Assembly: GCA_035084275.1 (NCBI GenBank)
Contig: CM068749.1
Span: forward strand, 16,740,001 to 16,804,000
DNA from: Hydrolagus colliei
Taxonomy: Eukaryota
Length of the DNA stretch: 64,000 nt
Direction of reading: 5' to 3'
This document shows positions 25,501 to 54,400 of this stretch, piece after piece. Made by a program: the position numbers and the translations under genes. The notes below the pieces were generated by a model. The model worked only from the letters and a program-made list of their open reading frames with translations, was not told the DNA's origin and did no database searches. The first letter of the stretch is position 1. Each line of letters opens with the position of its first letter.

Positions 25501-28500
25501 CTTTAGCTGGACGTACTTTAATCCCCCTTGCTAGCTGTTCCATGGAGCTCTTGAGTTGGTTTTGTGCTGAAGTGCTGAGTGTCTGTGCAAAAGGGTGTAA
25601 TAAGAATGATTAGAATTGATGACTGCACAGAGTTCTGTTCTGGTCAGTTCCATCTAGATGTTCTTTTACGAATCATATGTTGCACAGCGTTCTTAGTACC
25701 TGAGTGACTTGTTGAATGTCATCCCTCCTGATTTCAGCAAAAGCTAGCTCTTGACCAAACAATCGGACGTACGCTGACATCAAAGGTACTTCTTCAGGTA
25801 AGGCCTTCCACCCAGAAAGCTGAAACATTAAATTGATCATGAGTAAATACAAAGTACAGTTAAATAGACTAATGTGTCAAAAAAAAAGACACAGTTTGTT
25901 AACCAGTAGTGTTGCTAAATCATTCTTACCGTTTTCAAAATACGTAGCATCTGTTCTGTGTTCGTCCTCTTGCTGAGGGGGACACGATTGATCATCAGCG
26001 CCTCCTGAAGACCCTCTGCGCGTACGCCAACCTGTGTGGATAAAAACAAAGGAATAATTCCATGTCGATGGGAAATCCATTGAGAAGTTTACGGTCCATC
26101 TGTTACTGAATTACTTGAAGGAGTGGTTTGTGAATTTAACATGATGTTGGGTTGTTCAATCTCATAATTTCTCTTTGTTTTGGTTTGGGCACGATGAATG
26201 GACACTGATACTGATTATTTAAGTTCTCAGAGGTTCTGCTAAGCATATTTTAGAACAAATACTTCAATACATCATGTAATAGTTATATCTCAAAATAGCT
26301 TCAGCCAAGCCTCTGGCCACACTCTTACCCTCCCTCCTCCTCAATCCCGACCCCCAGCTCGGGTCCAAATCCCTGACTGTCCAGCTCCTTCCTCCTGATG
26401 TGGAGAGCGCTATACAAATGTAATTTGCATCGTATTGTTACCTCCACAAGATCCATTGAACCTCCAAGACCATGACCTCGGATTTTGCCTAATATGGCTG
26501 ATGGAATGATGCTGCCAGCATTGTTTAACAGAAGCAATCTAGCAGAAGCTCCAGTCATTAGATTATCTAAATCAGAAAGGAACAATGAATTGGCCAGTTA
26601 GTTTAACATTTTAACAAAAGTAAGTCTTTATCCACAAAAGTTGATTTCATCGGTTAAACCCCCCCACTAATTGTGTGCTATGTTCAGTCGTACATTTATA
26701 TTTGAGCCAAACCTGTGACTTTTTGGTTTAAATTAGACATTTCAATTGATTAGTAAATACAGTTGCCCAATTTGGAATATAAATTACACATTTTCTAATT
26801 ATTTATAAGGTATACAGGATGGAAGCCAGTTGTGGTAGACAAGAAAACAAGGGAATTATATAATTTGAGACAAGTTAGCATGATTTGGTCAAGTATATAC
26901 AGTTTGTCTATTAAAGGTTTTAAGGAATATGCATGAAGTTTGCTCTCTGGTGCCTCGTCTAAACATGTAGATATGTACACTGCAGTTAGAAATCTTTCCT
27001 TTAAAAATTTGCTAGGACAACACTTACATCTAAACATATCAATGTGGAAAACTTTGCTGTATCGGATACCGAGACGGTCAAGTCTGGGGCTCAGGAGTTT
27101 GACAGCTACGTTGCAGGAAGCAGCCCTATTAACATGAACATTTCAGATTATCAATACAGGTTCCATGCTGGTGAATGCTGAGTTTCAGGACAATGAATTT
27201 TGCACAGGTAATAAGTTCATTATATTAAGTTATGTGTGCACTTACAATGTAGCGATTCCTGGCAGTGAGCTTCTGGACAGAGCTTTCATATGTGAATAGG
27301 TAAAGCTGGCAACCTGTAAACTGGTCTCCTTCAGCAGTGAATCAGCTACTGCTGTCACCAAAGTTAAACTGGGTTTGGTAGAAAACAACACAACGCAAGC
27401 CACCATTCGTACTTCAGGATGATTTCTTCGGTTCATGAATATCTCGATGGTAATATCTTGTACCTGTCACAAAAGAAAAATAAAGTAAGTTGACAGCAAT
27501 CCAAGCATCATTTAATAGATAGTTCTGTACTTCCAGTTCTAGAACTTGTAGTGTTTACATTTAAGCAAATGTTATTAAGCATTTTATGTGAGCTCGTTCG
27601 ACTTTAACAAAATGAATTTAGTAAAATAACTTTTTAAAGCTGAAATAAAAGGAATGCTTGTCTTGCCTTTCGTGGGTCTCTCCTTGCAATGTTACGCAGT
27701 GAAGCTACAGCATCAACCTGAACCTTTAGTGGGAGACTGGATGCTGCACTGCCAAAGCCAGGCAAGAATTTCTGAATGCGTTTTATGCTTGTTGACTGTC
27801 CAGCATTACCGACTGCTTTGAGGCCAAGAACAATCTCCTGTTCGTGGGAACGACTGCCAGCATCGGCAAGCAGATCATGGAGTGGCTGGAACAAAAAAAA
27901 ACCTCTGTGAGACATTCGTACAAACCATATAATACAGATCATTTCTCATATTATTAAACCACATCATGTTACCTGCAGGACATCTTCAGGGCAGGATTGT
28001 CGCTCTGCGCAGAATCTGTACACCACAGAACCATATCCAAGAAGTACAATTTTGCGAAGGATGGGAGAGTGTCTTATTTGATTGATGGAGAGGAGTTCCT
28101 ATACAGAAGACACACAGAGGAGATTAACCTTTGTTTTTCAAGCGTTGTAAACAAATGGCAAAAGGTATTTGATTTTTTGTTCTCTAAAACGTACAAAAAT
28201 GAGGTGGGATCATACTCACTTTAGCAATAGGCATGCTCTGTCGGTCGGCTTTGAGTTGCTGCATTGCAAAAATCAAAGCCTGAGCTGCTTCAATGGTTTT
28301 GATTTCCGAACTTTGAATTTTGCGTTTGAGCAATCTCAGGGTGTCGGCTGTTCCTGCTGCGGGAAGTGCATCCAAAAACCAGCGCCTAGATTTGGGAAAC
28401 AAAGTGAGAACATTTTCTGGTGTTTCTATCTTATTGCCGCGTTCAAACCATAAACCTTTTCCTCAAGTGCATGGATGGGCTAAATGTCAAGACTAAGATT

Positions 28501-31500
28501 TCACCCTCAAATATCTTACTCAAAACATTTTCAGTGCCACATTAAAGGCATTTAGATCATGTGTAATGCACAATAAAACACATTTTATAATTAATGATAT
28601 TGTAATGAAAAAATTACCTATAATCTTGATTTTCTGCAACTCTCTTCCAACTGTTTGCAATAACCTCAAATGAGGCAGTCCTCAAAAGCTGGATAAGTTC
28701 CAAAAATCTCTCTGGGGCATCAAAGTGGACCTCGTGGTCATTGTACTGACCCATGTGTCTCACGGTGTCAATTATCTGCAGACAAAAGCAACGAATGTGT
28801 CATTCAGGTCTTTATAATGTAGATGAAACACAATATAGAATGACATTGGGACTGTTTACCTGTGCATCCAGGCTTTGATATTTAAGCAACTGAATTGGTT
28901 TCTGCAGTAGATTAGCGGTACATTTGTATTTCAGAGATCCACGATTCTGTAATCTCTCCTGTGGTTCACGGACGAGTTCAACTTTGATGTCATCCAGAAT
29001 AAGGTTTTGTCTGCAAAGAGTAGCATTGATCAGTTTTGCGGCAATCATTTTTTTTAAAATCACACGGCAACACAGTACATAGGGGAGACACAGTTGAGTT
29101 CTCCTTTAGCAGTAAGTAATATCTACACTTCGATATAACCATTACTCAGACCTTATCCTAAATTACAAACATTGTACCTTTATTGTTGTAAAATGTTAGA
29201 AATAACAAAAATATAATTTAGAAAATAATAGAGAAAACTTTCTGCCCATTTTATGTCAGGAGCTTCATTGGTAAAACAATCGACATGACATAGAACAACC
29301 TTCCTCCCACCTTGAAAGGTACTCTAAAATGTTGTTGTTGTTAAGAATGAAATTGAGCCGTAGTGATCCAGAATAACAATAATAATCCTTACATTTGGCC
29401 TCACACCATATCACATATCGTTGATGCATTTTAAAGTGCTTCACGGGATTTTACTGTGAAGTGCCAGTTTAGACCCCTAGTCTGAGGTGATCCACCTAGT
29501 AATGGCAGTTGGGAAACTACTTTGATTTGTGTCCCTGAACTGGAAGATCACGTAAAATCAGACAGACAAAGAGGCCATTTAGTGGCACATTTATAATCTA
29601 AGGATTGAAATTTTACTTTGCCATCGTTCCTATAATTTAAGCATTGGAGGTTTATTTTGCTAGGATACCTATAAACAAAGCATTGGAATCTTACTTTGCC
29701 TCCATCACAGCAGTCCCATCGAGCTCATGGAATGGTGTAAACTGATGTATTTCCCGTGTCCTGGCTTCGACAATAATTGCACCAGATACTTTAGGCTTCA
29801 GAATGTGAGTGAGAGCCACGGAGCTGCGAAAGTTCTTGTTTCTCTAAAGATAAGAAAACAATAATAATGATGTCCTTATTACCCTTAACATCCTTCACGT
29901 CCTTAAGTCCTTAAGATCCATCACAATATGAAAACATGCTTGAATGTGACTATCTGGGAAATAATAAGATGAAACAGTTTACCTGCTGACAAGCAGGGCA
30001 GGGAAGTGCATATGCCAGACCAAGTTGATGCTGGACCCTCTCCTGACAGTTGCTCAAGTCCTTTGATTTTGTCACAGTAATTTGGTTGGTCTTCCTGTCT
30101 TCCTGAAGTACATATTTTGTATTGCAGATGCCTTGAATTCCCATCTAGAAGAAAGGCAAATTGGTTTATTATCCAGCAATAAAAATGCTGGTGTAAATAT
30201 TTGCTACAAAGTGTGAAGGCTGGACATTTAGTTACCTCTTGTAACTCATAGACATTTTGCGTGTTCTTCACAGTGATCTGAAACATGTTCAAAATGCCTC
30301 TCTGGATGTTGAGTATGTTTTCAGGCAAGTCTTCAGGGGCATTGATATTTCCAACTCGGCCATTGCTGTATTCAAACGTAATAGGTTTGGTCAGGTCGGC
30401 TGCCAGTTTTTGTGTCAATTTACTTGCAGTACTTGATGGAACATTGGGCCAAACACCATTGAGCTCCTGAATCTGAGGGTCTGTGATCTGAGAAACAAAT
30501 GAACCCAAACATATAAATGGTCAAAGCTGTGACACACTTGCTATCATTTTACTTAAGACAGTTTGGGTTTTAATATGGTAAATAATTAAAAATTGAAATA
30601 GTTTAAGCAAGATTATAAATGAATCGTGGATGCGGCAGTATTTCGGTAACAGTGTGCTTCTTTAATATATCAGATATTTTGACTGTAAAAAAAATGTAAT
30701 TTATAATTCTGAAATGAGCTGTGTTGTGATTGTAAAGTTTGAGAGTTCAGACTATACAATTCCAAAATGATGTTGCGAAAAATTTGTACACTGTACTTAT
30801 GGTTTTGTTAAGTAGGCAAAACTACTTTATAAGAGTTTATACTTTTGTTTGGCAGTGAAAATAAGGATACCAGGAAATATAACTGAAATGTACAATTCAA
30901 AGAACGAAATTATAAAGCAACATGCATTAGTAAAATAATCAACAATCTGACACTGATCAGAATTTTTAACTTCCTTCTCTTTACACTCTCTATATTTGTG
31001 AGAAGAACAGGGTTGTTGCATAAAATTAATATATCTTGAGATTTAATTTTGTACTGTAATGTTCTACTTACTTCCATCTGGAAGCTATGTTTACCTATTT
31101 GTTTGCCATATATATATATGTTTCATGGTTGATGGAGTCATGGTTGATGGAGTCATCTTGTGCGCCAATGAGATTAATGTCCTATAATTACTCAAATTAA
31201 TGAGTTATTATTTATAAATGATCTTACCTGCATCAGATAGTTTCTTTGTGAGAGTGCACTGATTTTCACTTTGGCATTGATTCTCACACCTGCTCTGTTC
31301 AAGCCCTTTTCTGGAAGCCCAGTCAGGACCACACCTTCATACATATAAACATAGGTATACTTTTCACTGAAGTTGGGTTGAGTCCTCCTTTCATCTGTGA
31401 ACAATGTAAAATTATAGTGCAATATTGATAGGAATACATAGAAATAAACTTAATTTGCAAAATATTAGTGTAAAGCAAGTAAAGCCTTACTCACCGCCAC

Positions 31501-31567
31501 TGGATCCTTGGCTCCCTAGAAATGAGAAACAAATAAAAGTGAGCACAAATTAAATATTCTCAATTTT

Positions 31568-31616
<49 letters not shown>

Positions 31617-31713
31617 AACAAATAGGTAAACATAGCTTCCAGATGGAAGTAAGTAGAACATTTTCTAACTTACCCACAAGGGCGAGAGCCAGTGCAAAAA
31701 TGATTCCCCTCAT
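16569..31713 (-). CDS. vtg: Vitellogenin, middle copy (vtg-M); complete, 35 exons: LvH, repeat-type phosvitin region, LvL, vWD (beta') and C-terminal domain
   Basis: ATG 31713 (MRGIIFALALALVG), stop TAG at 16569-16571 (..SVDSHSDCIEE*). Approximate exons: 31674-31713, 31495-31515, 31228-31394, 30236-30487, 29983-30144, 29695-29843, 28860-29010, 28618-28774, 28220-28385, 27973-28098, 27667-27886, 27246-27463, 27028-27126, 26442-26566, 25930-26031, 25699-25819, 25399-25582, 24553-24658, 24170-24355, 23937-24086, 23547-23764, 22607-22749, 21000-22073, 20538-20585, 19946-20047, 19631-19843, 19397-19538, 19162-19300, 18906-19035, 18494-18683, 17879-17971, 17457-17548, 17210-17360, 16953-17114, 16569-16642. 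vWD motif TCGICG present. Confidence 0.95.
20093..20141. repeat. (TA)/(TATATATC)n microsatellite
   Basis: Direct reading. Confidence 0.9.
20780..20990 (+). mobile_element. L2-type 3' fragment ending ~10 nt from the exon-23 donor of vtg-M
   Basis: Tail gtgaagtgctccgagacgc..agggcgctatataaatccaagctgttgttg. Confidence 0.6.
21000..22073 (-). CDS. vtg: vtg-M exon 23, phosvitin-position exon (358 codons; Ser/Arg/Asp-rich)
   Basis: Acceptor tttacag|AGC at 22073 and donor GAG|gtaatc at 21000, both phase 0. It lies within ORF 20964..22100, between the IVLEIQTGSK exon and the short SAEILMLRFRSTYRSE exon. Confidence 0.9.
21017..21860 (-). repeat. Coding minisatellite, 18-bp unit (TCCAGTGACAGRCGNGGA-type on the minus strand), about 46-47 copies
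   Basis: The plus strand repeats ctgtcactggatcc(c/t/g)cg(c/t); it translates to SSDRRG/SSDRRR/SSDMRL/SSDIRG units. Confidence 0.97.
31058..31662. repeat. Perfect ~62-bp inverted repeat pair (31058-31119 / 31601-31662) flanking vtg-M exons 2-3
   Basis: aatgttctacttacttccatctggaagctatgtttacctatttgtttgccatatatatatat is the exact reverse complement of 31601-31662. Confidence 0.95.
31573..31612. repeat. (TA)n microsatellite in vtg-M intron 1
   Basis: About 20 TA units. Confidence 0.95.
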
Positions 31714-32569: not shown

Positions 32570-32910
32570 TAATAATAATACCGTACTGTACGGTACTTGC
32601 ATTTGATATAGCGCTTTTCACTTCTTCTAGATGTCTCAAAGCGCTTCACAGAATATACTGTAAAGTGAATTGACTGTATGTTTGTGGGCGAAATGAGGCA
32701 GCCAATTGTGCACAGCAGTGTCCCACAAACAGGCGTGGATTGAAATGACCAATTTTATTATTGTTGTTTTTTTGGAGGGATTATTATTACTGTATCCGGC
32801 GTTTGAAGTAAGCAAACTTGTCCAAGGATTCGCCCTGACCTGCCTCGATTTGAACACAGCTCTACACGCTTGTAAGGCGAGTGCTCTAACCACTGAGCTA
32901 CAGGACTCCA
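32570..32910 (-). mobile_element. Full-length tRNA-derived SINE (Deu-like body, L2-type 3' tail)
   Basis: Pol III A box TAGCTCAGTGG (32890-32900) and B box GTTCAAATC (32847-32855), body gggacactgctgtgcacaattggctgcc, tail gcgctatatcaaatgcaag..(ATT)n. Truncated copies lie near 5045-5150, 8650-8830, 20250-20420, 35290-35420, 38875-39025, 45510-45620, 59615-59910 and 63155-63260. Confidence 0.85.
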
Positions 32911-33576: not shown

Positions 33577-33589
33577 GGTCACTGTGACA
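33577..33589. promoter_or_regulatory. Imperfect estrogen response element (vtg-M, distal)
   Basis: GGTCActgTGACA, one mismatch; it lies in CR1-like sequence. Confidence 0.4.
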
Positions 33590-33884
33590 TTAGGAGGCTA
33601 AATGGGCTCCAGCGACAGTGCAGAGGAAAACATATAATGTTTATATTAATAAACATTAATATTGATTCCCAGTGTTGGAAGGATGAGCCATGAAAGAATT
33701 ATTAGGTTAGTTAGAGCTCTTTAGCTGTTTAAAGAGACACCACACAAGGCAGCTCAGCCTAATAGATCATTACAGGGAACGTAAACCCAAAATAATATTT
33801 TCAAACATGTTAAGGCAGCAGGACAGTTGGGCACAAATTATGAAGGTAATTTTTTAAATAACCACTAGGAAGAGTTTGTTTACA

Positions 33885-36059: not shown

Positions 36060-36065
36060 TTTATT
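36060..36065 (-). terminator. Candidate polyadenylation signal AATAAA of vtg-R
   Basis: tttatt on the plus strand ~170 nt past the stop codon. Confidence 0.5.
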
Positions 36066-36234
36066 GGAATATATTAATGCATTTTCTGCAATAATTAGTT
36101 AACTGCAAAAGTTATACATTTGAAAGTTAACATGGAAAGCTGTATGACTGTGAGAAATTATACAATTGAGGCTTGAGTGAGTTTGATGTGCATGAAAACT
36201 GTAACCTCAACGCAGTCAAGGAAAATGGATGCCT

Positions 36235-39200
36235 TTATGCCTCAGCACAGTCACTGTGGGAATCCACAGAATGATGGAGGTCAAAACTCAACAGTTGGCT
36301 CACATAGGTATCTGCTGAGAAAGCGAAATATGCTTCATGAACAGTTTTGAACATATTTGGTTAAACAAACACACATATGACTACATATAATTAAAATGCA
36401 CACTATATATACATAATAAATAAGTCAAGTGATGATTTTTCCATATTGTTTGAATAATAATGCACTTGGAAATTAAACTAGCCACAGAATTCCAACACGT
36501 CACACCATTTCCTATCAATACAATTGATCTTGCTTTCTGCAACAACAAATGTTGTTGATTGCCAATTGTCGTAACTCAAAAGCATTTTGTTACAATTAAA
36601 TTAAATTTGAGAAAGAAAATACTACAGTATAACATATGTAATTACATCATTATTAGCCTGATCGGTGCCTTGGGATGTCCTCCCGACATGAAAGACGCTC
36701 TATAAATGTGTTTTTGTTGATACGAATGGACAGTTCGGATGTTTTAATTCTTAAATCGTACTTTCATATTTATTTAGAACATTACTACCAACCATCACTT
36801 TCACAGCTTTGTATTTTAAAATTCAACATAACAATAACTTCCTTGAAAAAGATCCACAAACTTACCCGTGGGTTCACAATGGAAAGCAACACTGACAGGA
36901 ACTTTTTCAGTTGGTGGACACCCAGGGAGACAGCGTTGGACTGGCTCTATTGGAGAACATCTGGACTCCCTGCCTCCAAACCTCAGTGGTGATTCTAATT
37001 CTACAAATGCACTCTGAACTTTGCATTCTGAATTAAAAGAAAAAAATGCATAAGGAATGGTTCAGGCATTTTTTTTGTTTTTGTGAGATAACATGATTTA
37101 AAAATCAGTCAGAATCTCCTACCATCCTGGCAGGTGGTTCCTGAACATAGCCACGACTGGAAGAAGATATCAACGCTTTGAGTTTGGTTGTGATTTGGCA
37201 TGATCATCTTTCTCTCCCCATCGTTATGTCCACAAATACCACATGTCTGTTTATTCATCTGGTTCACTACAACCTTAAACCACAGTTGAAATAAAACATG
37301 TATTAGTCACGTACATTTCTGAACAATCTACTTGGAAAATGTTCTGATCAGTTGGGTGAGCTACCTGCACTTTGACTCCATCGAAGTATAATAAGTCCAG
37401 TTGAATGTGTTTTGCTTCCAAAATAATTCCAGTGCCATTTGTTCGAATCTGGACAATACCTAAATTAGAATAAAGAAAACAACTCCAACAATGTCCTTAA
37501 ACCATGTGGTGTCAAAAGATAAGCGATAATAGGTAAATAATTAAACTTTTGTGCACATAAAGCTGAATTGCATTGGAAGTCTCACATTTTTGCTAGTATT
37601 TCAGAAAACTGTTTCAGGAAACATCTCTGCTACTGTTTACCAGCCAATGCAGTAAACACTCACCTTGTTCAGTTCTTGGGAGCGAGCTCACTGGGCACTC
37701 CACATTATCAATTAACAGTTTAATATCTTGACTTTCCGGATATGCTTCAATGACACTGTTTGGAAACAAAACCACAAATTCTGTTTAAAGAACTGTAAAC
37801 TTCCAGAAAGGCATCAACAGTAAAAAATATAATTGTGTGATGTACATGATCTCAAGACCCTCAAGTAGGATTTATACATGTATCTAAGGAAAATTATGTT
37901 GGTTGCGTTGAATGTGTGCTATTCTTTATCCGTCATTCATTTATTATTAAGGGATCAATAATGTCCAGTAACTAGAATGATGCAAACAAAAAAAAGTCAA
38001 ATATCATAAATATAAACCTAAATGTACAAATATCAAATATAAACCTACTCTATAAACCATGTGCATTTTCTTGAAGCAAGAAAAGAGTCAAAGTCAGTAA
38101 AAAAAAATCATTTGTAATGTTACTTACAGATTGGGGTTTGACATTAGGAGCTTTATCGACTTCTTTGATTGAATCTTCGCACGTTTCATCAATAAAACAA
38201 ACTTTGGAGCACTTGAACAGTCCTGTGTCAGGACATAATAGCAGTTATTAGGTATCTGATATTCTAACTGGGCGTTATCAAATGAAAGTACCTTGTTTTG
38301 TTCTGCTGTACATTTCCCTGCAAAAATACAAAATACTGTAAAATATTACACAATTTGGCAATCTACATATTAGAGTCTAGCAATGTAGTGATTTCTAACA
38401 GAATACTTTTATAAGTAAGCCAAGGGTTCCTTAAGATGGAAACAAAATGGAAACTCATTTATAACTTTCTAATTTGTGAGACATCTGAATGCAATTGATT
38501 TGGAATGGAATGCACTTGATGTATCATACTACTGTTTTTTTAAATGAATAAATCCACTCAGAAATTGACACAGATGATTACCCAAAATAGAAGCTGTACA
38601 ATTTTTATTTCAAATACAAATAAAATGAACTGAACTTTTTGTATTTCAAATAAAAATAATTGCTTATTACGTTAAGATACTTTACACTGAGTTAATTTGA
38701 AATGTCCTCATTGTCATAACATAGACAAATATAGTGGCAAATCTGTGCTGGTGAAGTCCCACAAACAACAATGTCCAACTAATTACTTCATGTAAACTTG
38801 GATAGGAAACATTTTTGGGTATCAATGGTAGTAATCTCTGCTGGTCTTAAATAATGGTAGGAACAGCAATCTAGAGTAATAATAATCCTTTTCACATCTT
38901 CCAGACCTCTCAAAGCGCTTCACAGAATACACTGTAAAGTGAATTGACTATATGTTTGTGAGTGAAACGCAGCAGCCAATTGCACACAGCAGTGTCCTGC
39001 AAATGTTCTTGGATTGGATGACCAAATGATTAAAGTAGAAAATAAAACATTTTCCACACTTTAATGCAACACAAAATATCCTTCCCATGTTAATATGTTA
39101 GAATAAACCCCGAAGGCGCCTCACTACATTGTTTTTTAGTTAAAATTATTTAACGAGATTTAATTGAATTAATCATTCGGTTATAGTTAATTGAGATTTA

Positions 39201-42200
39201 GAGGCGAAACTTGGAAGTACTAATTACGTTGGTTCACTGTAAGAAGTAGGTCAGGAATTTCCATGACGGATCTGAATCCTCTTGCTTTTATCCATGGAGA
39301 GACTGCACTAATGGGAATTGATAAAGGAAATTGGGCACCTTGATAGTAGACCGTCATCTGAAACAGAAGCAAAGGTTAAGTGTTATTCTGATGCAAAAGC
39401 AGTTATCAGGTAACTTGTAACAAAGAAATATCATTTGAAGTACAATGACATAAAGTAAATATAGATTACAATACCTTGGGTACTTTAATAACGGAATCAA
39501 TGGATTGTGGTGTTTTTAGAATGACCAACATTGTAATCTGACGAGAAGGATTGCTTTGATATCTTTGGGACATTCCTGACAGGTAGGCAATTCCTGGTAA
39601 TGCTTCTCCAACCCTGAACCCAGATAAAAAGCATCATTAAGCACGTCGCTTTCTGCAACATAGAAGGTGCACGTTAAAGCAAAATAAATGTGTGATTTTA
39701 AAGCTTACATTCTTCCACTTGATTTCAGCCAATCAGGAATCCTGGACCATTGCAATTTGACCTTAATTGCTGGGTGGCTTGAAAACTCACCAATTGAAGC
39801 CTTAACAGACACCTCATAGTCCTGACAGTTTTGACCCCATCTCAATAATACCTAAAGAATTTTTTTTGAAAGGTTAGATTTACTGAATAATGAGAAATAT
39901 TCTCTATGTAGATTCGAGTAGCTACAGTAGAATTGTATATTACCATTGCTTTATGTCCATGAGGCATGATACCGTCAGCACAAATTTTCCACCTGCTGTC
40001 TTCAGCCAGTTCCACCATACGCAAGTGAACCCTGGGTTGATGATCTGAAACTTCTGTAAATCCAGTGATCTGATAGCCTTGCTGTTTCCTGTCAATCCTT
40101 ACAGCTCGAAGAAGGATAGTGAGAATAGGGGAACCTGTGCTTCTGATGAGCTCACCCTAGGGTTATAAATAAATACATTTTAAAGTGATTAATTGGACTG
40201 CAGATCATCTCAGTTCTCAAGCATCCTGGAACTATACTGTTGAGCAGAAAACAAACCTGGCGAGATAATCGAAGAATTGATGAGCTGCTGCTGCTGCTGC
40301 TGCTGTGTCTTCGCTGTGTACCAGAGGATGGATTTCCTCCTGGAAAACTTCTCATTGACATTCTTGTGCTTGAGCGCTAAACAGTTCAGAAGTAAAGTCA
40401 TCCATGATTATATTGTGGATACAGAGGTCATGAATTGGGGCAAAATCTTTTATTTTTGATAGTTGTATTAATTATACAGCATTCGTCTGTGTTGGAAAGC
40501 TCAATAATCATAAAATTCTCTGGATGAATCATCATAAATTAAAAATGTATTTCCCTAGAAGGGAAGGCCAATAAGAATTACATTTGTATTTGCAGCAATG
40601 TTTTTAAGGAATGATCAGTAAAGTAATAGTGCGATTCTACAGTTGGATCAGGCACTTGTTTATTCATATTTTATTGGACACATTTCTGTCGTAGTTCATT
40701 GGAAATGATTTAGCAACGTTGTTAAATGTAAGAGTTCAATTCATAAGAGATGAATGTATCGCCATGATTTTTGGTCAATATACATTTTGCGCTGGATTCT
40801 TACAGTTTGCTGATTCTCCCATTGCATTAGTCGAATGACTTTTGAAGCTGCTTTGGATCCTGTCTGTATTTCTAGTACAATTGTTTCAACTTCTGACTCT
40901 GAGTGAACTGCAAACAAAAGGTTTATTGTGATTCATGCACTGCCAACAAAATTGCTTAAATGCAAAATGTGCTTTTTAAAATTTATTTACCTGGTCTTAC
41001 TAATATTGTAACAGCATGCTCGCCTATCATTGTATACAATGGGGATGGTCTAATACAAACAGCATCTTCGATTGATGCATCAAGGCAAAATTCAATCCCC
41101 AATTCACTTATTCTGGAACAAATCTTATATGTAGACGTCCTTGCAACTTGTGATCGTTTCCTCTGTTCAGTTTCCTCTGATATTATTTCTGAAGACCACT
41201 GAGCCTGCAGACCGACAAAGAAATGTCACATTTTTCCATTGGCATATAATAGAATTTTAAAATCACAGTATATTAAAAAAAACTAGGAACACAAGTCCAG
41301 TACACAGGAAATAGAAAACAGTGGGAAGGTGTATAAGAATGGAAACGTGCATATAAGACTGCTCAAAAATGAAAGCAGAAGTCTCCAATTGAGAGTTTGG
41401 TAGAGTTCATTAAAAAGTTATTGTGTTGTATTGTGCATATTCAACACAAATATTAAATATTATGAAAGTCATGCTATTGCATGTAAATGAAAAATCAGAG
41501 GTACTTACAGTTGTTTGCCTACTCTTTCTGGATGACCTCTCTGATGACACAAAGGCTTGGCTTGTATTTGTATTTGCTGGTAAAATTGGCGTCATTTTTG
41601 TCGCAGCCAAATTTTCAATATTTCTTGAAACGGCATAAACCTGTGACCTGCAAATTCAATATAAATATTAACATTATTAAGATAGCAAAAGCAATACTGT
41701 TTTTAAAAACAAACAAACCTACGTAAACAATATAAGCAGGGTCCACCTAGTCTCTCTGTGATATGTACACTGAATAGCACTGAGCCATGTGAAATGGCTG
41801 AATTCTTGGTCTGTCTTGCTATTGTTCGCCTCAGGCACATTGATGCTATAATCGGTTTAGGTTTCCTCCCTATCCCTCTACCCCTATAAGGAAGATGGGT
41901 TAGAATAAATTGACATAGTTCCTTCTTCTAATCAACAATAACAACAACAAATTAAATTTGTATAGCACCTTTCACATCAGGAGGACATCCCAAAGCGGTG
42001 GACAGTCAGGGATCTACACCCAAATGGCTGGTTGGGATCAGGATGGATGGAGAGCATAGAAGATAGGGGTAGGAGGGTGACTGAATGCACAGTCGAAGAG
42101 AAGTATCAATGTTCAGTTAATCTAAACTGAAAAAATATATATGTATAGGCATGGGCCTTAAGTAAGGAAGGATTCAGCTCTGCTACAATAGGTTCCAATC

Positions 42201-45200
42201 ACAAAAGAATGCAGTCACCAACTGGGTTCCTATCTGAAAGCAGTGGCTGCTGTCATTGATGGTATTGTATGCCAAGACGAAACAACGCTTTCAGGGGATT
42301 AAAAAAGAAAGACTAAATTTTATAGAAAAGAAAAATAATGAAGACATTTGACTTCAAATGTTTACAGTGAGGAAGATAATATAAATTACTTGAATGATAT
42401 GATCCGGTTCTCCTTTTGAGCTGGTTTACTTTCAATCTTCAGATTTCTTTCTTTTAGATTTATTCTCACAGCTACATTTACTGGATGATCCATACAGACT
42501 TTTGCTTGGAGTTCCACACCTGCCTGGATAAAAGGTGCAATAATTCCCATGAAGGCTTTGGTGTAAATGACTACACTGCAAAACAACACAGAAACCATTA
42601 GACAAAGATTTAACATAGAGAAGAGATGAATACATACAGAAAAATGAGATCCTTCCACTGCTACTGTTTAAATTTCAACAGAAATCAAGTGGTATTACTC
42701 TTCTTTTTTTTTTACATAAACACATACCTTGGGTTGATTGTTGTCTTCAATTGAATATTGGCATTGAGCAACTGAAAAATTGAAGAAATGTAGGAGGGAG
42801 AGATGCGTGCTTGAACTGTTTGAGAGAAAGGAATGAAATGAGTTAGGATCAAAGATTTATTTCCTGCAACATGTCCAATTAGTGGCATTTCTCTGTTAGC
42901 TTCTATATCTATATGAGTTGAAGTTCCTTAACAGATAATGATTCTTATTTCACATCTATGGAAAGAGCATGCCTGACCCTTAACTCAAAACAACCATTTT
43001 TATTCTGCTCGAAAATGAAAGCATAAGTCTCCAATTGAGACTTTGGTAGAGCTCATTAAAAAGGTTATGGTGTTGTATATTTCCACTATAAAACGAACTG
43101 TGGCTGTGGTTATCTAAGAGCCCTTTTCAGGAGTGGAAGCAAAGAAATTAGAGACAAAGTATAAATATGCTTCTCACCATTTGCTGTGGCCACTGTTACA
43201 ACAGATGAATGAAAGGACAGTTCCATTGGCAGACCGACACTTGTGGCTATAACATGTCGTATCTCAGCTGCTAGCAATGCTACAGAAACATGTAATCCAA
43301 TCTGGTTTCTGAGCCGATCCACAAATTTCCTTAATCCAGTGAGTGCTTTCGATCCATGAGTGTCTGTCTGTACAGTATAGAAAAGTGAAATGAACCGTGT
43401 GTCGTAACAATGATTAGAATGGGTGGCTGCACAGAATCCCGCTCAGATCAGCTCATTTGGACGTACATTTACAAACATATGTTGTATAGCTCTCTGATAC
43501 CTGAGTGGCTTCCCGGATGTCATCTTTTTTGAATTCAACAAAGGCTATTTCTTGACCAAGTAATCTGATGTATGCTGACACCAAAGGCACTTCTTCAGGC
43601 AAAGCTTTCCATCCAGCAAGCTGGAAAATCAAAGACATTAGGAACCAAGTTTTGAAGCATGCAAATATATTACAAAGACAGTATTTGTTAACCAGTGAGC
43701 CCTTCAAATTTGTTCTCACCATTTTTAAAATACTCTGAATCTTTTCAATATTTGGTTTTCCACTGAGTGTTACGCGATTTCTCAATAGGGCTCCCTGAAG
43801 ACCTTCTGCCCGCAAGCCAACCTTGGTGGTTTAAAAAAAATCAATTTATTATACTTAATCCACATTCCATGTAGACAGTAAATCCATCGTGAATTTGAAA
43901 ATCCGTTTCACATTGAATTTTATGAGGCGCTTGAATTCTTCAAATTAGTGGTCCATTACCTCCACAAGATTTACTGAGGAGCCAAGGGCATAACCATGAA
44001 TTTTTCCCAAGATTGCTGATGGGATTGCGTTGCCAGCATTGTTTATTAGAAGCATTTCAGCAGATGCTCCTGTCATTAGATTATCTAAAAGAAATAACAA
44101 TGAACTTCTCAGTTCTTCCAGTTGAAGTTTACAATTGTGTTAAGCTGTAAAATTTATATTTGAACTTAAATTGTCTATATTAGAAATTGAATTGTTTTAG
44201 ATACTAGAGAAAGTAACACTGCAAAATAATATTGATTAGAAATTGCCTATTTCCTGGATATTTACAAGGCACCCACAATTAACGGTACTTGACAAAACAA
44301 AAGAAAAGACAATTTTACAAATTTAATGAAATTTAATAATACGCTCTCAATTAAAAAGTCTCTTTTAAACACCCCATTTAATCATAAATTTAATGTTGCC
44401 TTTAGAATCTTGCTAGAACTTACATCTGAACATATCCATTCGGAAAACTCTGCTGTATCGGGAACCAAGTTTGTCAAGTCTGGAGCTCAGGAGTTTGATG
44501 ACTAGATTGCAGGATGCCGCCCTGTTAACATGAATTGTTAATGGATTATCAATAGAGGCTACACATGCAATTTTCCACTGGTCAAAACAGAAAATTATTT
44601 TTAACAGGGTAAATAAAATTGCCACCGGTTGCAAAGTGAATTACATAGTGGACATAAATTGATGATTATATTAGTAGAAAAAGGATGACGTTAGAAGGAT
44701 TTTTTTTGCACAGCATTTAAAAGGAAATAATATGAGAATGGGGGGAAAAAAATGATTGGAATAGGATTAGAGAAAATAAATACACCAGGACCGATTGGCA
44801 GCTTTCTAGGCAATGAGGATTCTGTGGTATAGTATTATACTTACAATGATCTGGCAGATGGCAGTGAGCTTCTGGACAGAGCTCTCATATATGAATAGGT
44901 AAAGCTGGCAACCTGTAAACTGGTCTCCTTCAGCAGTGAATCAGCTACTGCTGTCACTAAAGTTAAACTAGGTTTGGTAGAAAACAGCACAGCGCAAGCC
45001 ATAATTCGTACTTCGGGATGATTCTTTCGATTCATGAATATCTTTACTGTAATATCTTGTACCTGTCTCAAACGGAAAAAAAAGAAAGAAATGATCAATA
45101 AAATAATAATATCAAATGTATAGAATATTTTAGTCAAATTGCAGGTTCGGTAAGAATTATTTGAGTTAATGGAACTTGATAGTTAACCGGAGTTGTGGGT

Positions 45201-48200
45201 ATACTGATTTTCGTACCTTTCGTGGGTCTTTCATTGCAATGTTACGCAGTGTAGATACCGCATCAACTTGAATATTTAATGGAAGATGCGTGGCTGCACT
45301 TCCAAAATCAAGCAAGTATTTCTTTATATATTTTATACTTGAAGGCTGTCCTGCATTACCTATTGCTCTGAGGCTGAGAACAATGTCATGCTCATGTGAA
45401 TGATGATCAGCTTCAATGAGCAGATTATGGAGTGGCTGGAAGAAAAAAATCTCAGGTAGAGTCTTGTGGAACCCATGTGAACTCAATGGCAAACCAGCTA
45501 TTAATAATATAATAATAATTCTTGCGTTTGATATAGCACTTTTCATGTCTTCTCAATGTCTCAAAGACCTTCACAGAATATACTGTAAAGTGAATTGACT
45601 GTATATTTGTGGGCGAAACAAAGCAGTTTACAAAATCACAGCAGTTTACCTGAAGGGCATCAGAGGGGCATGTTTGGTGAACTGCGCAGTACCTCATCAC
45701 AACAGAACCATATCCAAGAATCACAATCTGGCGAAGAATGGAGGAATGCTGCACATGAGCAACACTAAGTAATTCCTGCAAAGCAAACATTAATTAAGAG
45801 TAACTTTGATGCACAGCTAAGCATCAAATTCATGTTGAAAATATGAGGGAAAAGGTTTTTTGGTGTGGCTTCTCTCTGAATCTCAGGTAACTGTAGGTCT
45901 ATACTCACTTTAGCTACAGACACACTCTGCCGGTCAGCTTTGAGTTGCTGCATTGCAAGAATTAAAGCCTGAGCGACCTCAGTGGCTTTCATTTCCGAAT
46001 ACTGAATCTTGTGTTTGAGAAATCGCAGGGCATCAGCTGTTCCTACAGCAGGAAGTGCATCCAAAATCCAGTGTCTACATTTAAGAAACAAGGTGAAAAC
46101 ATTTTCTTGTTCTATATTCCCCTACAAAATACACAGGGTTTAAATCCCTTGCAGTGAATCCTGTGCAGCTATTTAATACAATGTCCACAAATGACTTACC
46201 AGTGGATCGGATATAATTGGATCTATTATATCAAATATAAAGTATGTATGTGTTTGGGTTACCTAAATTCTTCTCCAGCCATAGGTGAATGGGGTGCTTG
46301 GCAAATCTTAACCAGGGGAGAATAATGTGATTATGTGGTTTACCTGTACACCCGTTTCGTGGCATAATTCTTCCACACACTATCAATGATTTTATCTGAT
46401 GCTGTACGCAAAAGCTGCACAAGCTGCAGAAATTGATTTGGAGCATCAGAATGAAGTCGTTCCTGGTTGTTCAGAGCCAAATGATTTAACGTTTCAATGA
46501 CCTATATTTAAAAAAAATTACAAATAACATGAAATGAAAGTGCACTATATCACACAGGGATAGGGGGCGACACACAATATCGTGTTGATATTTACCTGGG
46601 TTTCCAGAGTTTGGTATTTAATTAACTGGATCGGTTTCTGGAGTATATCACTATCCCAGTGGTGTTTCAAAGTTCCATAGCTCTGAAAATCAACTTGTGG
46701 TTCAGAAACTTTTGCAGCTATGATATCATTCAGAGTGAAGTGTTGTCTGAAAAGAAAAATATTATTCAGAAATGTACCATAGTTTGTGTATCATCATTCG
46801 ACATTCAAACAGTATTATATAGCCACAATCAGAGCACAGTTAATTAGAAATGGAAATATTAAGATAATTTTGCTTTGCAGCAATTTATTGCAACATTGGC
46901 ATAATCTGCAACCATATATAATTATAAATCTAACTTATAACCCACTACACTTGAATAGATTCAAAACATCAAAATTGTTTGAAATTCGAAGTAAACCTAA
47001 ATATACATGTTCTGCAAATTCCTTGTGAATTAATAATCTAATCATTGGAATCTTACTTTGCCTCCATAACAGCAGTTCCATCAAGTTCATGGAATGGTGT
47101 AAACTGATGTATTTCCCGTGATTCAATCTGAACAATGAGTGCACCAGATTCTTTAGGTTTCAGGGTATAGGTAAATGTCGCCATACTGCGTAAATTCTTG
47201 CTTCTCTAAAAATAGTAAAATAACAATATAATTACCATTCCATGTAATTCTGCTCATAAAATTAAAATGGTTCAAAATGCCTTTATAAACCATGTATTAA
47301 ATAGTTTTTGTTTAATCTCACACATATATTTTTAAGTACAACATAAAGATAATATCTGGAATAATAGAATGAAAAGCTAACAGTTTTACCTGCAGGCAAG
47401 TAGGGCATGGCATTGTATAAGCCATACCAATTTGCTTCAATGCCCTTTCCTGACAATTATCCAGATCTTTTGATTTTGTTACAAAAATATGGTTGGCCTT
47501 CCTGTTTTCTTGAAGTATGTATTTTGTATGGCAGATGCCTTCAATTCCAGTCTGGAGGTGAAAGAGACAAATTGATTTATTGTAGAATGTGTGACATGCA
47601 AAATGTTTGAATGTGCTGTGAAGCCTGAATGTTTACCTCTTGTAACTCATAGACATTTTGTGTATTCTTTATAGTGATCTGCAGCATATTCAAAATGCCT
47701 TTGTGGATGTTGAGTATGTTTTCAGGCAAGCCTTCAGCGGCATTAATATTTCCCACTCGGCCATTGCTGTATTCAAACTTCACAGGTTTGGTCAGGTCGG
47801 CTGCCAGGCTTTCTGTCAATTTATTTGCTGCACTTAATGGGACATTGGGCCAAACACCATTGAGCTCCTGAATCTGAGGGTCTGTGATCTGAAAAACAAA
47901 TGAACCCAAACCATACAAACGGTCAAAGCTGTGCCAGGCCTGAGAAATAGCATCACATCAATTTTGAAAGGAATGACACATTACCCAGTTTTGGTAATTA
48001 ACCAATGAGGTCTGTAGGCACAGTGTACGGGCCACAGAGAATTATAAAATGTGTTTGTTATAAATTAGAAAGAAGTTTGCATTCTTCATTTTTGAAAATA
48101 TTGCAGAGTCAAAATGGATAATGAAATGTTCTATGATTTTCCATTGGTCCACCGTAGTAGCTACCTCTCTTTGGGAAGAACAAGAAGCCTTGGTCAACAA

Positions 48201-48921
48201 GTCTCTGGACAAATTGATCATTCTGTTTCAGGACTCTGTTGTACACAAAATGGCGTGTGATTCAATTCAGACTGAAAACTTTCACTAATGTGGTTGGCAC
48301 AATCCCAGTTCTATTTTCTCAGTAGAGAATGGTATCTGCCTTTGCCACTTGTGTGAGCACGTGTGATTTTTGTGCTTGAGAAACAACATTACATAAATAA
48401 CCAGTTGTAGTTCCTGTCTTTTAGTTACTTTGCCAGTTCTATTTACAGCATCACATTTTTATTTAAATTGCTGATCATAATAGTATTTGAAATCTACTCA
48501 CATTAAGAAGGTGGATTCTTTGCGTCAGTCTGCTGATTTGAACTCCGCAGGTAATTTTTAAACCTGCTTGGTTCAAACCATTTTCAGGAAGTCCAGTTAG
48601 AATTATGCCTTCATACTGGTAAACATATGTTTTTCTTTCATCAAACCTGGGTGCTGAAATCAAGTTACAAGTAACAGTACTATATTGAGTAAAACACTTG
48701 AATTAAAGTCATGTTGAAAAACTATTTTTCAAACAAGAAAATGACACTTACCAAGATTTCTCTCACTTTCTGGAATTGAAGAACATATACAAATGAAAAC
48801 AAATAATCTGGTACTGTATAAAATATCTTAGAATTTTAAAAACAATTACAACTAGGAAGATCAATATGTTTATTAACTTACCCACAATGGTCAAGATTAA
48901 TAAGAAAATAATTCCCCTCAT
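36235..48921 (-). CDS. vtg: Vitellogenin, right (SSX2IP-proximal) copy (vtg-R); 33 exons, lacking phosvitin exon 23 and exon 24, retaining LvL, vWD and C-terminal exons
   Basis: ATG 48921 (MRGIIFLLILTIV), stop TAA 36235-36237 (..SVDSHSDCAEA*). Approximate exons: 48882-48921, 48752-48769, 48502-48653, 47637-47888, 47390-47551, 47058-47205, 46596-46746, 46343-46501, 45910-46075, 45650-45775, 45217-45435, 44845-45062, 44424-44521, 43959-44084, 43719-43821, 43501-43620, 43178-43367, 42728-42815, 42390-42575, 41509-41648, 40991-41204, 40804-40907, 40257-40376, 39944-40156, 39709-39851, 39475-39613, 39228-39357, 38128-38317, 37663-37755, 37365-37459, 37123-37273, 36866-37027, 36235-36314. No in-frame stop or phase conflict found on manual translation. 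Confidence 0.92.
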
Positions 48922-48929: not shown

Positions 48930-49039
48930 ATGAATGGTACTTGGTTGAATTGGTTTCATGAATTTATACTAGATAGTTCTCTTCCATGTATGTGCTTATT
49001 TGCTGACCGATGCTCTTTTCAAATCAGTACCAAAGTTCA
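48930..49039 (-). promoter_or_regulatory. vtg-R core promoter: canonical TATAAA (48963-48968) and CAAAGTTCA (49031-49039)
   Basis: TATAAA lies ~30 nt upstream of the ATTCATCAGTCAACATG leader; the HNF4-type motif is at the same relative position as in vtg-L. Confidence 0.7.
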
Positions 49040-49222
49040 TCAAAGATTAACAATTTGATTTTAAATCATTTAAAAAAATTATTTAGTGTATATTAAAATA
49101 TCTTGGTTCTAATAATGGTGATCTGCAGGTATGTAAGATAAAGAAATGTTTTTATAATAAAACTTTTTTTGTTAAACAGTAAACAATTAATTGGGTTAAC
49201 TTGTGTTAAATTCCGTTGCAAA

Positions 49223-49256
49223 AGTTACAATGACCTGGATTGAGGTCAGTGTGCCC
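49223..49256. promoter_or_regulatory. Tandem pair of imperfect EREs (vtg-R)
   Basis: AGTTAcaaTGACC (49223-49235) and GGTCAgtgTGCCC (49244-49256), 21 bp apart centre-to-centre. Confidence 0.65.
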
Positions 49257-51426: not shown

Positions 51427-54400
51427 TCACTTGAGGTTAGGCTCAGCTCCAGTTTGTATAGAATTTTCATTAAAGCTCTCATCCCATGAATGTTTTAAAA
51501 GCATGGGAGATGATGCATCATAAAAGTCATGAGGTGAAGTTGATTTTGCTGGGTTTCTCCATTTCTCGCTTGGTGTTCCACAATTGTTTCTTTTATCGTA
51601 AACGCCACTACTATTTCCCCTTTTTGGTAGAGGTCTTGAGCTGTAAAGAAAAATAAAACATTCCATCTCAATCTGAACTTGTAATGTACTTATCCCAACA
51701 TATTGGTTGAATTTAATGATAAAGGAATAAACACGGAACAGCTAATTGCATTCACTTGACTACAATTTAACAAGTTAAACTGATTATTTTAAAACTCAAG
51801 GCACTAGTCAGTTGCCCTGAAGTGCTTTGAGACAGCCTCACAATGTGAAAGCTACTTTATGAATTATAATTCATAGCAATTGAAGAACACATACACACCT
51901 ATTTCCTTGAATATGACATGCTGTGCGGTATGGTTCAGTGGACATTGAACTACCTAGCGGAGGAAATCTGATTTTTGATGAGGTTTCAGGTGTTGCTACT
52001 GGAACTGTACTCGGTCGAAGGTAAACAGACATATTTATATTTGGTGGTGATTGCGTATTTTGCTTCTCTGGGTCTGAAACTGGAAGACATTATAAAAATC
52101 AGGCAAATAAGTGGAAACAACTTTGAAGTACAGTACTTCTGGAAATTAAGGTACACTGAACAGGAACTGGCTAACTCAAAACCTTCAATTGTTTTACATG
52201 AATACATTTCCCCACAACTACAACTTTGATGAATACACAGCAGAATTATGCTTAACTGGAAACAGAATATTGGTATGTCTTATGTGAAATTAGGATGCAA
52301 TGTAAAAAAAAAGTTTATTTGCCTGAAAGGATACAATGTATTCCCCATGCAGCTGAAGTAGAGAGCAAGAGGAAATCAAATAACTGTGTAGTTTTCACAC
52401 CCCAAAATTGGTCCCAATTAAGCCAGATACCAGGCTCATTCTTCACCCCCACCCATCCCCCGCTTTCTAGTTCATTCTAATTTTATGTAGGGAGGCAAAA
52501 CTACTCTTAGGATTTTACTAACACAGTTAGAAAAAGAGCCAATAGGTGGTGTACAAGAATGGCCTAGGTAGACTTGCTCAGATGTGTCTGAACACATAAA
52601 TTTCCCCAAACCCCACATAATTTTTTTTTAAAATTCTTTAATAACAATAAAAAAGTAAAGCACTTGGCAACAGAAAACGTACTTTGCTGCTTCATGATTT
52701 TTGGCTTCTTCTCTGCAAAAGGAGTCATGTTCAAAAATTGTTGCTTTAACCAACCTGCTCGATCTTCCTCAAATATTTTCCGCTGCAACATAGAAATGGA
52801 TTATTGAAATGCATCTCCTAAGCCCCTACTATTCTACATATAGGGAAACTATCCACTGAATTACCCAAATATTCTTGAAAAGGAAACACCATATTTGTCG
52901 GTATAATTCATCTTCTCTCAAGTTATTGCATTTGATGCTACGAAATTGACAAGATTTAGATGATGAAAGCCCCATAATTCAATCTCATCCTCCTTGAATA
53001 AGAAACCTCACTTTCTTCCCTTTAAACTTGGGAGTGCAACACCATATATACACGCTAAAATATATAGTACCTCATGCCCTAGTCTAATAGCTGCCTCTGT
53101 AAAATTTCTTCTCTCCTTTTCAAAGTTCTTTCGCTGATCATCAAATAATCTCCATTCTTCTTTCAATCGTTCCTTCTCTTCGAGCAAATAGCAATCACGC
53201 AGTAGTGCAGCTGTTTCATCATCACACTGGACATTAAGCTGTTGCTTCGGAAAGAAAATACAATTAATCTTCACGGTTAAAATGTTCGATGTTTTGATGC
53301 TTTAGGATGGCTCTTCACCTCACAACAATTATGCTTCTAATCTGCAACTGCTTTCCCCTTCCTTCTGTTACATTTAGTAATTTAACAAAACAACCGCTAA
53401 AATGCTTTATGTTTAGTGCAATTCTGGTTCATACAATTATCTATTGATAAGAGGACAATTCATGATACCCAAAATAAATCTCCACCTTATTACTAATTTT
53501 TTAAATATTAAAATGCTTCACATGTGCTAATATGCAGATTTTATTTCACAATTACTGAGGTTCTAGGTACTTTCACCACTATAATAGATGTTAGGCAGCA
53601 AAATGCACAAATGAAGACTGTATCTAAATCCAGCTGCAAACATTTGGTTCCAAAATCTTGTGAGATATCATAATACACATGGAGTAAGACAGGATTCAAT
53701 AGAATATTTTATTCCATTACCCTTAGGCAGTAACTTCCCCCAGGAGTGAGTGGGGTGGCATCAACAACAGAATAAACTTTGCTTTGGTCACAGAAGGAGA
53801 GTATGTAATAAGCCAAATAGATTCATCTCGCCCCATATTTTAGGCTCTTAATCAATGTGGCAATGGTTACTTTTGTTTGCACCAATCATTTCTCCCAGTG
53901 GTGCACAAAAAAACCCAACAACAAATAAATACTGCAGATGTTTGCGACTCAGCATTCCACCTGTAAAAAATGTAAACAAGATTTTGTTCCCCACCCCTAA
54001 TGGGTCAGATTATACAAATTTATATATGTACTGTATATATATCGCAGCCTTCATATGGGTAGTTCCCAGAGCGCTTTAGTTAAATATTACCTGTAGAAGC
54101 TGTTGCTGAGCTTTGATAACATCCCTGCATTGCTGGATTTCTAGTTTGAGTGTTTCCATCTCTTGTTCATAGTGCTCTCTGCTTATTATTTCATCACCAA
54201 CCAGAAAGCCAGATTGTACCAAGGAAGCTACAATAAAGTGAAAAAGTGGCCTATTAACTCTACAATATTCGATGAATTTGAAAGGAAATAACACATTCAG
54301 TTTGTACAAATGTTGCATGAAGGCTCTTTCACTACACAGAATATATTCAAATATTTCACAATTCCTCATACATTATACAAGTCATGGCAGACTCAGTTAA

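What the first reader, a model, noticed from the sequence alone, without database searches (positions are those of the whole stretch)
40257..40907. Intact phosvitin-less vitellogenin that keeps the vWD/C-terminal domains
Seen: in vtg-R, exon 22 (40804-40907) is only 427 bp from exon 25 (40257-40376), with no Ser-rich exon and no exon-24 equivalent in between. In vtg-M the same interval is ~2.5 kb and holds both exons. All other exons translate without stops, and TATA and EREs are retained; only a short Ser run in exon 25 remains. Established: the known phosvitin-less form, teleost VtgC, also lacks the beta'/C-terminal part and is not the SSX2IP-adjacent cluster type. Inference: this is an independent loss of phosvitin, giving an LvH-LvL-beta'-CT architecture that possibly supplies lipid and amino acid rather than phosphate and metal.
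Basis: partly seen in the sequence, partly recalled or inferred. Interest (0 to 1): 0.82.

Follow-up and report, generated by a model that had tools for sequence, protein, structure and literature searches.

The report
Chimaera yolk gene lacking phosvitin
One of three neighbouring egg-yolk (vitellogenin) genes in a chimaera fish has lost the exons for the phosphate- and metal-carrying phosvitin segment but otherwise looks intact; this seems unreported for this gene type, though similar phosvitin-poor forms exist in other vertebrate gene models.

Summary
Observation confirmed. The window is the holocephalan VTG2 tandem cluster (R, M, L). vtg-R has 33 exons, a stop-free 1562-aa frame, and a 427-nt intron where vtg-M has 2.56 kb holding exons 23 and 24.

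R groups with holocephalan VTG2; grouping with VTG1 (the VtgC orthologue lineage) is rejected (AU p 3.6e-6). Branch dN/dS is about 0.42, like its paralogues. No repeat marks an assembly collapse, and published H. affinis models hold only two distinct phosvitin exons for three VTG2 genes. A real loss in a working gene is therefore likely, but no transcript was available.

The novelty was overstated. C. milii VTG1 has 17 linker serines (R has 16) and keeps vWD/CT, possum VTG1-like models have no serine run, and shark and ray VTG1 isoforms skip the phosvitin exon. What is new is a fixed loss in the VTG2 lineage beside a sister gene whose phosvitin grew into 46 tandem repeats. New variant of a known kind; moderate interest.

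The parts
36235..48921 (-). vtg-R: holocephalan VTG2 paralogue, 33 exons (1-22, 25-35), 1562 aa, LvH-short linker-LvL-vWD-CT
   Evidence: open frame, GT..AG; tree; Pfam Vitellogenin_N, Vit_b-sht_shell, VWD
40804..40907 (-). R exon 22, end of LvH; 13 codons shorter than M and 10 shorter than L because of a new in-frame donor
   Evidence: donor score 6.6, rank 15 from the bottom of 88 donors, above M's own exon-22 donor (6.0)
40765..40803 (-). former 3' tail of exon 22, now intronic; read-through hits a stop after 20 codons
40377..40803 (-). 427-nt fused intron replacing exon 23 (phosvitin), exon 24 and their introns; 40377-40559 aligns to M intron 24
   Evidence: score 83, 0 of 500 shuffles; no tandem array and no self-BLAST hit between 40418 and 40791; only 11-18-nt chance-level repeats
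40257..40376 (-). R exon 25: 40 aa, 16 Ser, one 9-Ser run (GCT x7.3 at 40284-40305); by position the N-terminal arm of LvL, not phosvitin proper
   Evidence: lamprey LV-2 residue 7 aligns 2 residues before the exon-25 start of the C. milii model
39228..40156 (-). R exons 26-29, lipovitellin light chain; introns 25-27 are 85-91% identical to M (gene-conversion tract)
36235..38317 (-). R exons 30-35, vWD (beta') and C-terminal part; AATAAA at 36060-36065
48963..49256 (-). R promoter: TATAAA 48963-48968, ERE-like site 49244-49256, and an ERE-like element at 49224-49240 conserved in all three promoters
16569..31713 (-). vtg-M: complete 35-exon paralogue, 1955 aa
21000..22073 (-). M exon 23: phosvitin expanded into about 46 copies of an 18-bp unit (Ser 119, Arg 113, Asp 52 of 358 aa)
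20538..20585 (-). M exon 24 (16 aa), absent from R
105..10820 (-). vtg-L exons 1-22, cut by the window edge; orthologue of C. milii XP_007885401.1 (86%)
52564..60865 (-). coiled-coil gene upstream of R, taken as SSX2IP
   Evidence: exon-like ORFs; the name is recalled from the peptides and fits the published synteny (PMC10015161); the one exon tested gave no Pfam hit

Best explanation
vtg-R is a working holocephalan VTG2 that has lost phosvitin in the genome. A deletion in the tandem cluster removed exon 23 and exon 24 (shown: both absent, and the 3' end of the fused intron is the old intron 24). A G>T change made a new donor that trims exon 22 and keeps the frame into exon 25 (shown in DNA; its use in splicing is inferred). 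The gene is probably estrogen-induced in liver, secreted, taken up by oocytes and processed to LvH, LvL and beta'/CT (inferred from promoter, signal peptide and family knowledge). It would deliver lipid and amino acids with little phosphoserine: 16 linker Ser, against 134 in M and 52 in the C. milii L-type model. Phosphate, calcium and iron delivery would be left to M and L (inferred).
For: Open 1562-aa frame over 33 exons. Three-way branch estimate over LvH: dN 0.172, dS 0.408 for R (about 0.42), M 0.33, L 0.43; R-M 0.27 in vWD/CT; 15 of 15 Cys kept. R exons 1, 3 and 4 are 88-92% identical to R-type exons in a C. milii model, as conserved as L against its orthologue, across a Chimaera-Callorhinchus split put at about 187 My (PMC12952989). 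The new donor is the only in-frame GT with a normal score before the first stop. H. affinis models (supplement of PMC10015161) show the same exon-22 read-through, an R-type exon 25 with its R-type intron, and only two distinct phosvitin exons for three VTG2 genes, one used twice. No repeat at the junction, while M's 0.8-kb array is assembled. ERE enrichment.
Against: No transcript, read or yolk protein was available. Three protein searches found no C. milii model with R-type exons beyond exon 4, so the loss could not be checked in a third species. The published H. affinis VTG2-2 model, taken at face value, puts a phosvitin exon after R-type exon 22; I read it as stitching. The exon-25 acceptor is weak (3.6, rank 4 of 87) and an AG 178 nt upstream scores 10.8; using it would bring a stop. 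9 of 35 long introns have a higher-scoring decoy, but R's gap is the largest, though M's own exon-25 acceptor is as weak. R's branch is the longest of the three in both dN and dS.
Confidence: 0.74

Rival explanations
1. The deletion is real, but R is a recently disabled or barely expressed copy (mis-spliced or silenced) whose frame has not yet decayed.
For: Weak exon-25 acceptor with a strong upstream decoy that brings a stop. Longest branch of the three. No R-type database protein beyond exon 4. Finn and Kristoffersen note that vtg genes can be present yet little expressed (PMC1770952).
Against: No stop or frameshift in 4.7 kb; dN/dS like the paralogues; by eye the H. affinis R-type model shows no stop across LvH, LvL and vWD; promoter elements kept.
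Confidence: 0.13
2. Assembly artefact: a repetitive phosvitin exon dropped out of R.
For: Phosvitin exons are low-complexity and often missing from automatic models. Several short-linker database models (Polypterus x2, Scleropages partial, Acipenser fused model) look like that. I could not see reads.
Against: No repeat or gap at the site (no N in the window). Exon 24 and both introns are missing too. Exon 22 is remodelled, and the same remodelling is in H. affinis. An independent short-read assembly also yielded only two phosvitin exon types.
Confidence: 0.07
3. The phosvitin block has been exchanged between R and M (by recombination, or by a switch in one assembly), so in H. affinis R carries the repeat exon and M lacks it.
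For: H. affinis VTG2-2 (R body) has the repeat exon, and VTG2-1 (M body) goes from exon 22 straight to the R-type exon 25. Gene conversion between R and M is evident just downstream.
Against: Those models were curated on a short-read assembly (the supplement names TBLASTN in a neighbouring legend) and are mosaics. Their first exons look swapped too; one block is used in two genes and out of exon order. The piece before the repeat exon is M's intron-22 tail and begins right after an in-frame stop, and the R intron-25 piece ends right at one.
Confidence: 0.05
4. R is the VtgC/VTG1 orthologue, so its lack of phosvitin is the known, inherited one.
For: C. milii VTG1 is similarly Ser-poor and keeps vWD.
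Against: Tree and AU test; tandem position with two VTG2 genes next to the SSX2IP-like gene; H. affinis and C. milii have a separate VTG1.
Confidence: 0.01

Closest known systems
Holocephalan VTG2 trio (C. milii; H. affinis VTG2-1/-2/-3; Ohishi et al. 2023, PMC10015161; read: abstract, parts 1-3 of 6, passages, supplement parts 7-8 and searches)
   Same: Three tandem VTG2 genes by SSX2IP. R corresponds to H. affinis VTG2-2 (66 of 71 residues identical in exon 21, counted by eye). A chimeric C. milii model runs R exons 1-4, M 5-12, L 13-32, so the gene order is the same.
   Different: The paper never uses the word phosvitin (0 in text; 0 in supplement), and its stitched VTG2-2 model includes a phosvitin exon, so the loss was not noticed there.
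Teleost VtgC / zebrafish vtg3 (Finn and Kristoffersen 2007, PMC1770952, passages; Schilling et al. 2015, PMC4651544, passages)
   Same: No phosvitin exon; LvH joined to LvL by a short linker.
   Different: VtgC has also lost beta' and CT and belongs to the VTG1 lineage. In white perch it does not bind LR8 or Lrp13. R keeps vWD/CT and is VTG2.
Chondrichthyan VTG1, the VtgC orthologue (C. milii XP_007885428.1/429.1). Andersen et al. [quoted passage not shown]
   Same: Full-length with vWD/CT and a very short Ser-poor linker (72-87 aa, 17-18 Ser, against 51 aa and 16 Ser in R). S. canicula and Pristis have RefSeq isoforms without the big Ser exon.
   Different: Different lineage and locus. In the sharks and rays the short form is a splice isoform, whereas R has lost the DNA.
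Brushtail possum vitellogenin-1-like RefSeq models (XP_036610974-979)
   Same: N-terminal domain plus vWD, 27-aa linker, no Ser run of 4 or more in the two isoforms checked of five.
   Different: A marsupial gene of uncertain yolk role; predicted models; its genomic exon loss was not checked.

Membership tests
Vertebrate vitellogenin | Signal peptide plus Vitellogenin_N / lipovitellin heavy chain | tested here: met
   Pfam PF01347 on exons 4 and 12; hydrophobic exon 1; signal peptide judged by eye
Vertebrate vitellogenin | Lipovitellin light chain | tested here: met
   PF09175 and lamprey LV-2 match for exon 26
Complete-type vitellogenin (LvH-Pv-LvL-beta'-CT) | vWD (beta') and CT | tested here: met
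   PF00094 on exon 30 above cut-off, exon 33 below it; 15 of 15 Cys kept
Complete-type vitellogenin (LvH-Pv-LvL-beta'-CT) | Phosvitin polyserine exon between LvH and LvL | tested here: not met
   Exons 23-24 absent; 51-aa linker with 16 Ser against a median of 135 aa and 38 Ser in 97 full-length models
Vertebrate vitellogenin | Estrogen-induced liver expression and uptake into oocytes | not testable with these tools
   Only promoter motifs
Holocephalan VTG2 | Clade with C. milii VTG2 inside chondrichthyan VTG2 | tested here: met
   SH-aLRT 99-100 in two quick trees (40 and 16 rows); no bootstrap, as the careful search did not finish
Holocephalan VTG2 | Tandem cluster next to SSX2IP | tested here: inconclusive
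   Three tandem copies shown; the neighbour's name is recalled from ORF peptides, with no Pfam hit for the exon tested
VtgC / VTG1 | Orthology to VTG1 (VtgC lineage) | tested here: not met
   p-AU 3.6e-6 against R plus four chondrichthyan VTG1; teleost VtgC not in the tree
Teleost VtgC | Loss of beta' and CT | tested here: not met
   Exons 30-35 present and open
Teleost VtgC | Lack of phosvitin | tested here: met
   shared state, separate origin

The most novel reading that the evidence does not exclude
Chimaeras have divided the phosvitin job among three tandem yolk genes: R carries none, L a normal polyserine, and M a greatly expanded Ser-Asp-Arg-Arg repeat. Together with the already Ser-poor VTG1, phosvitin was cut down twice in this lineage without losing vWD/CT. 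This gives a natural set in one species for asking what phosvitin adds to receptor uptake, yolk platelet packing and Ca, Fe and phosphate supply, apart from the C-terminal loss that confounds VtgC.
Probability: 0.4. Interest if true: 0.58.

Novelty: new variant of a known kind. Interest (0 to 1): 0.42.

Why it matters
Reviews treat phosvitin loss as tied to VtgC and to loss of beta'/CT (PMC1770952: true for all VtgC forms then sequenced). A VTG2-lineage gene that deleted only phosvitin uncouples the two and shows the loss is repeatable. It also corrects the published H. affinis models, which are stitched across paralogues. The gain is limited to vitellogenin and chondrichthyan specialists: linker length is a continuum (27 to 588 aa), and phosvitin-poor full-length forms already sit in databases.

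Tried and rejected
Decayed exon 24 in the R intron: a 14-of-17 match by eye at about 40508-40524, but 46 of 1000 shuffles and 7 of 54 control tiles score as well, and the stretch also aligns to M intron 24, so inconclusive. Homology of the intron's 5' part to M or L intron 22, M intron 23 or the start of M exon 23: not above shuffles (889, 681, 236 and 154 of 1000; 42 of 300; 435 of 500), so the left breakpoint is not mapped. An alternative small exon from the AG at 40554: stop at codon 18 and no good donor. A displaced Ser-rich exon in 32000-52000: none. C. milii orthologue of R around the junction: the exon-21 search found nothing (22 candidates), and the exon-4 and N-terminal searches gave only a chimeric model (proteins over 2755 aa not searched). 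H. affinis VTG2-2 as evidence that R has phosvitin: rejected as a mosaic. Andersen et al. 2017 is not in the library. The careful tree did not finish; quick trees were used. No structure prediction was run. Eight paper searches listed nothing on a phosvitin-less holocephalan VTG2; subscription journals are mostly not covered. Read collections and eukaryotic genome assemblies could not be searched here, so the junction is unchecked in raw data.

Full report
Setting. Self-comparison shows three tandem minus-strand vitellogenin genes. I built exon models by coordinate. R has 33 exons and 1562 aa, M has 35 exons and 1955 aa, and L is cut by the window edge after exon 22. The best named relatives are Callorhinchus milii models at 65-86% identity, and Hydrolagus affinis peptides in the supplement of PMC10015161 are closer still (66 of 71 in exon 21, by eye). 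The window is therefore from a chimaera, probably a chimaerid; I did not fix the species. That paper reports three VTG2 genes in holocephalans by SSX2IP. A chimeric C. milii model that takes exons 1-4 from R, 5-12 from M and 13-32 from L shows the same order there.

The observation. It holds as written. Exons 22 and 25 of R are 427 nt apart and join in phase 0. M has 2559 nt there, with a 1074-nt phosvitin exon and a 48-nt exon 24. No Ser-rich open stretch other than exon 25 exists in 32000-52000 on either strand. The 3' 180 nt of R's intron align to M intron 24 (0 of 500 shuffles); the 5' part has no significant match beyond the old exon-22 tail, and a possible exon-24 remnant is not significant. 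Where M and L read GGA AGA, R reads GTA AGA, a new donor 13 codons before M's, and the old donor is gone. It is the only in-frame donor with a normal score before the first stop. The trim removes the segment that in other vitellogenins holds the LvH/phosvitin cleavage motif (recalled). Lamprey LV-1 ends at the conserved part of exon 22 and LV-2 begins about at exon 25. So the 16 remaining serines lie in the arm of the light chain, and phosvitin proper is gone.

Real or artefact. The window has no N; no tandem array or self-BLAST hit lies inside the fused intron beyond its exon-adjacent ends, and only 11-18-nt chance-level repeats were found. M's 46-copy array is assembled. The H. affinis models at first seem to contradict the finding: VTG2-2 (R body) carries the repeat exon and VTG2-1 (M body) lacks it. 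They were curated on a short-read assembly and are mosaics. Their first exons look swapped. One phosvitin-plus-intron block appears in two genes, once out of exon order. The piece in front of the repeat exon is the translation of M's intron-22 tail, starting just after an in-frame stop, and the R intron-25 piece ends just at one. Read piece by piece, they confirm R's new donor and R's exon 25 in a second species, and give only two phosvitin exon types for three genes. That is supportive, not proof, and the face-value reading stays as a rival. Three protein searches found no C. milii R model beyond exon 4.

Working or dying. The frame is open. Over LvH the R branch has dN/dS about 0.42 (M 0.33, L 0.43), and R-M is 0.27 in vWD/CT; gene conversion among the copies makes these rough. 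15 of 15 cysteines are kept. R exons 1, 3 and 4 are 88-92% identical to C. milii. TATA, an ERE-like site and an element shared by all three promoters are present. Against this, the exon-25 acceptor is weak, and a stronger AG 178 nt upstream would bring a stop; 9 of 35 long introns have such decoys, but R's gap is the largest. No expression data were available.

Lineage. On LvH alone R is sister to M+L inside chondrichthyan VTG2 (SH-aLRT 99-100), and grouping with VTG1 is rejected (p-AU 3.6e-6) (quick trees, no teleost VtgC). The loss is independent of VtgC.

How unusual. Of 189 stored proteins (R and M included), 151 had both anchors and 97 also had the N-terminus and vWD; one fused two-gene model was dropped, leaving 96. 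This set is redundant and drawn from top hits only. The median linker is 135 aa with 38 Ser; R has 51 aa with 16 Ser. 5 of 96 are shorter than R, and 7 besides R have 16 Ser or fewer. Most of these look like automatic models that skipped Ser-rich exons (inference), but possum VTG1-like RefSeq models lack any Ser run in both isoforms checked. Among 46 chondrichthyan rows, only three Ensembl isoforms of C. milii VTG1 are shorter; its RefSeq form has 72 aa and 17 Ser. The next-shortest row placed in VTG2 by the tree is Pristiophorus (90 aa, 20 Ser). S. canicula and Pristis VTG1 have isoforms lacking a 409-aa and a 358-aa Ser block. The title of Andersen et al. 2017 already places a phosvitin-less VtgC in chondrichthyans (reference list only). 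So the architecture is not new. A fixed deletion in a VTG2 gene was not found in eight literature searches, which miss most subscription journals.

Mechanism. Shown: deletion of exons 23-24, new in-frame donor, intact LvH, LvL and vWD, constraint. Inferred: estrogen-driven liver expression, uptake and cleavage as for other VTG2. Fam20C phosphorylates phosvitin's serine runs (PMC7948968, passages), so R could carry roughly a tenth of the phosphate M could in this segment, and M and L would supply phosphate and cations. In white perch VtgC does not bind LR8 or Lrp13 (PMC4651544); R would show whether that follows from phosvitin loss or from other changes.

Papers seen: PMC10015161 (abstract, parts 1-3 of 6, passages, supplement parts 7-8 and searches); PMC6185446, PMC1770952, PMC4651544, PMC7948968, PMC12952989 (passages only); the others as search listings. 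Verdict: real and probably functional, a new variant of a known kind, interest 0.42.

Noticed in passing
window 21000-22073: vtg-M phosvitin is not polyserine but about 46 tandem 18-bp units coding a six-residue Ser-Asp-Arg-Arg unit (33% Ser, 32% Arg); strongly basic unless phosphorylated. H. affinis has the same repeat.
   Followed up: partly
window 5736-6556 vs 27602-28416: Recent gene conversion between L and M: exons 9-11 are 93-99% identical and intron 10 is 100%.
   Followed up: partly
window 39214-40417 vs 18892-20088: Conversion tract between R and M over exons 25-29 (82%; introns 25-27 85-91%), starting just inside R's fused intron; exons 4, 12 and 33 are also 90-95%.
   Followed up: partly
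window 27665-27666 and 5808-5809: GC-AG intron 11 in both M and L; R has GT.
   Followed up: no
window 11024-11249 vs 56671-56892: A 226-bp element (80%) is shared, inverted, between the L promoter and an intron of the SSX2IP-like gene; it splits the L promoter from its ERE.
   Followed up: no
window 31990-32228 vs 33118-33367: Local duplication (83%) in the M promoter.
   Followed up: no
window 31058-31119 vs 31601-31662: Perfect 62-bp inverted copy between M introns 1 and 3, next to a TA microsatellite.
   Followed up: no
window 36235-36311 and 16569-16642: R and M end two or three residues after a single last-exon Cys, shorter than the Cys-x-Cys ending of the VTG1 and tuatara models.
   Followed up: no
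database models P0001, P0011 and PMC10015161 supplement: Ensembl/UniProt C. milii VTG2 models and the published H. affinis VTG2 peptides are chimeric across paralogues.
   Followed up: yes
database models P0105/P0107, P0178/P0179, P0059/P0192: Elasmobranch VTG1 RefSeq isoforms skip the phosvitin block; possum VTG1-like models have no serine run; Rhincodon and Stegostoma genes named 'vitellogenin 3, phosvitinless' have 441- and 471-aa Ser-rich linkers.
   Followed up: partly
window 63270-64000: C-rich stretch that looks like the start of a LINE reverse-transcriptase element, by eye.
   Followed up: no
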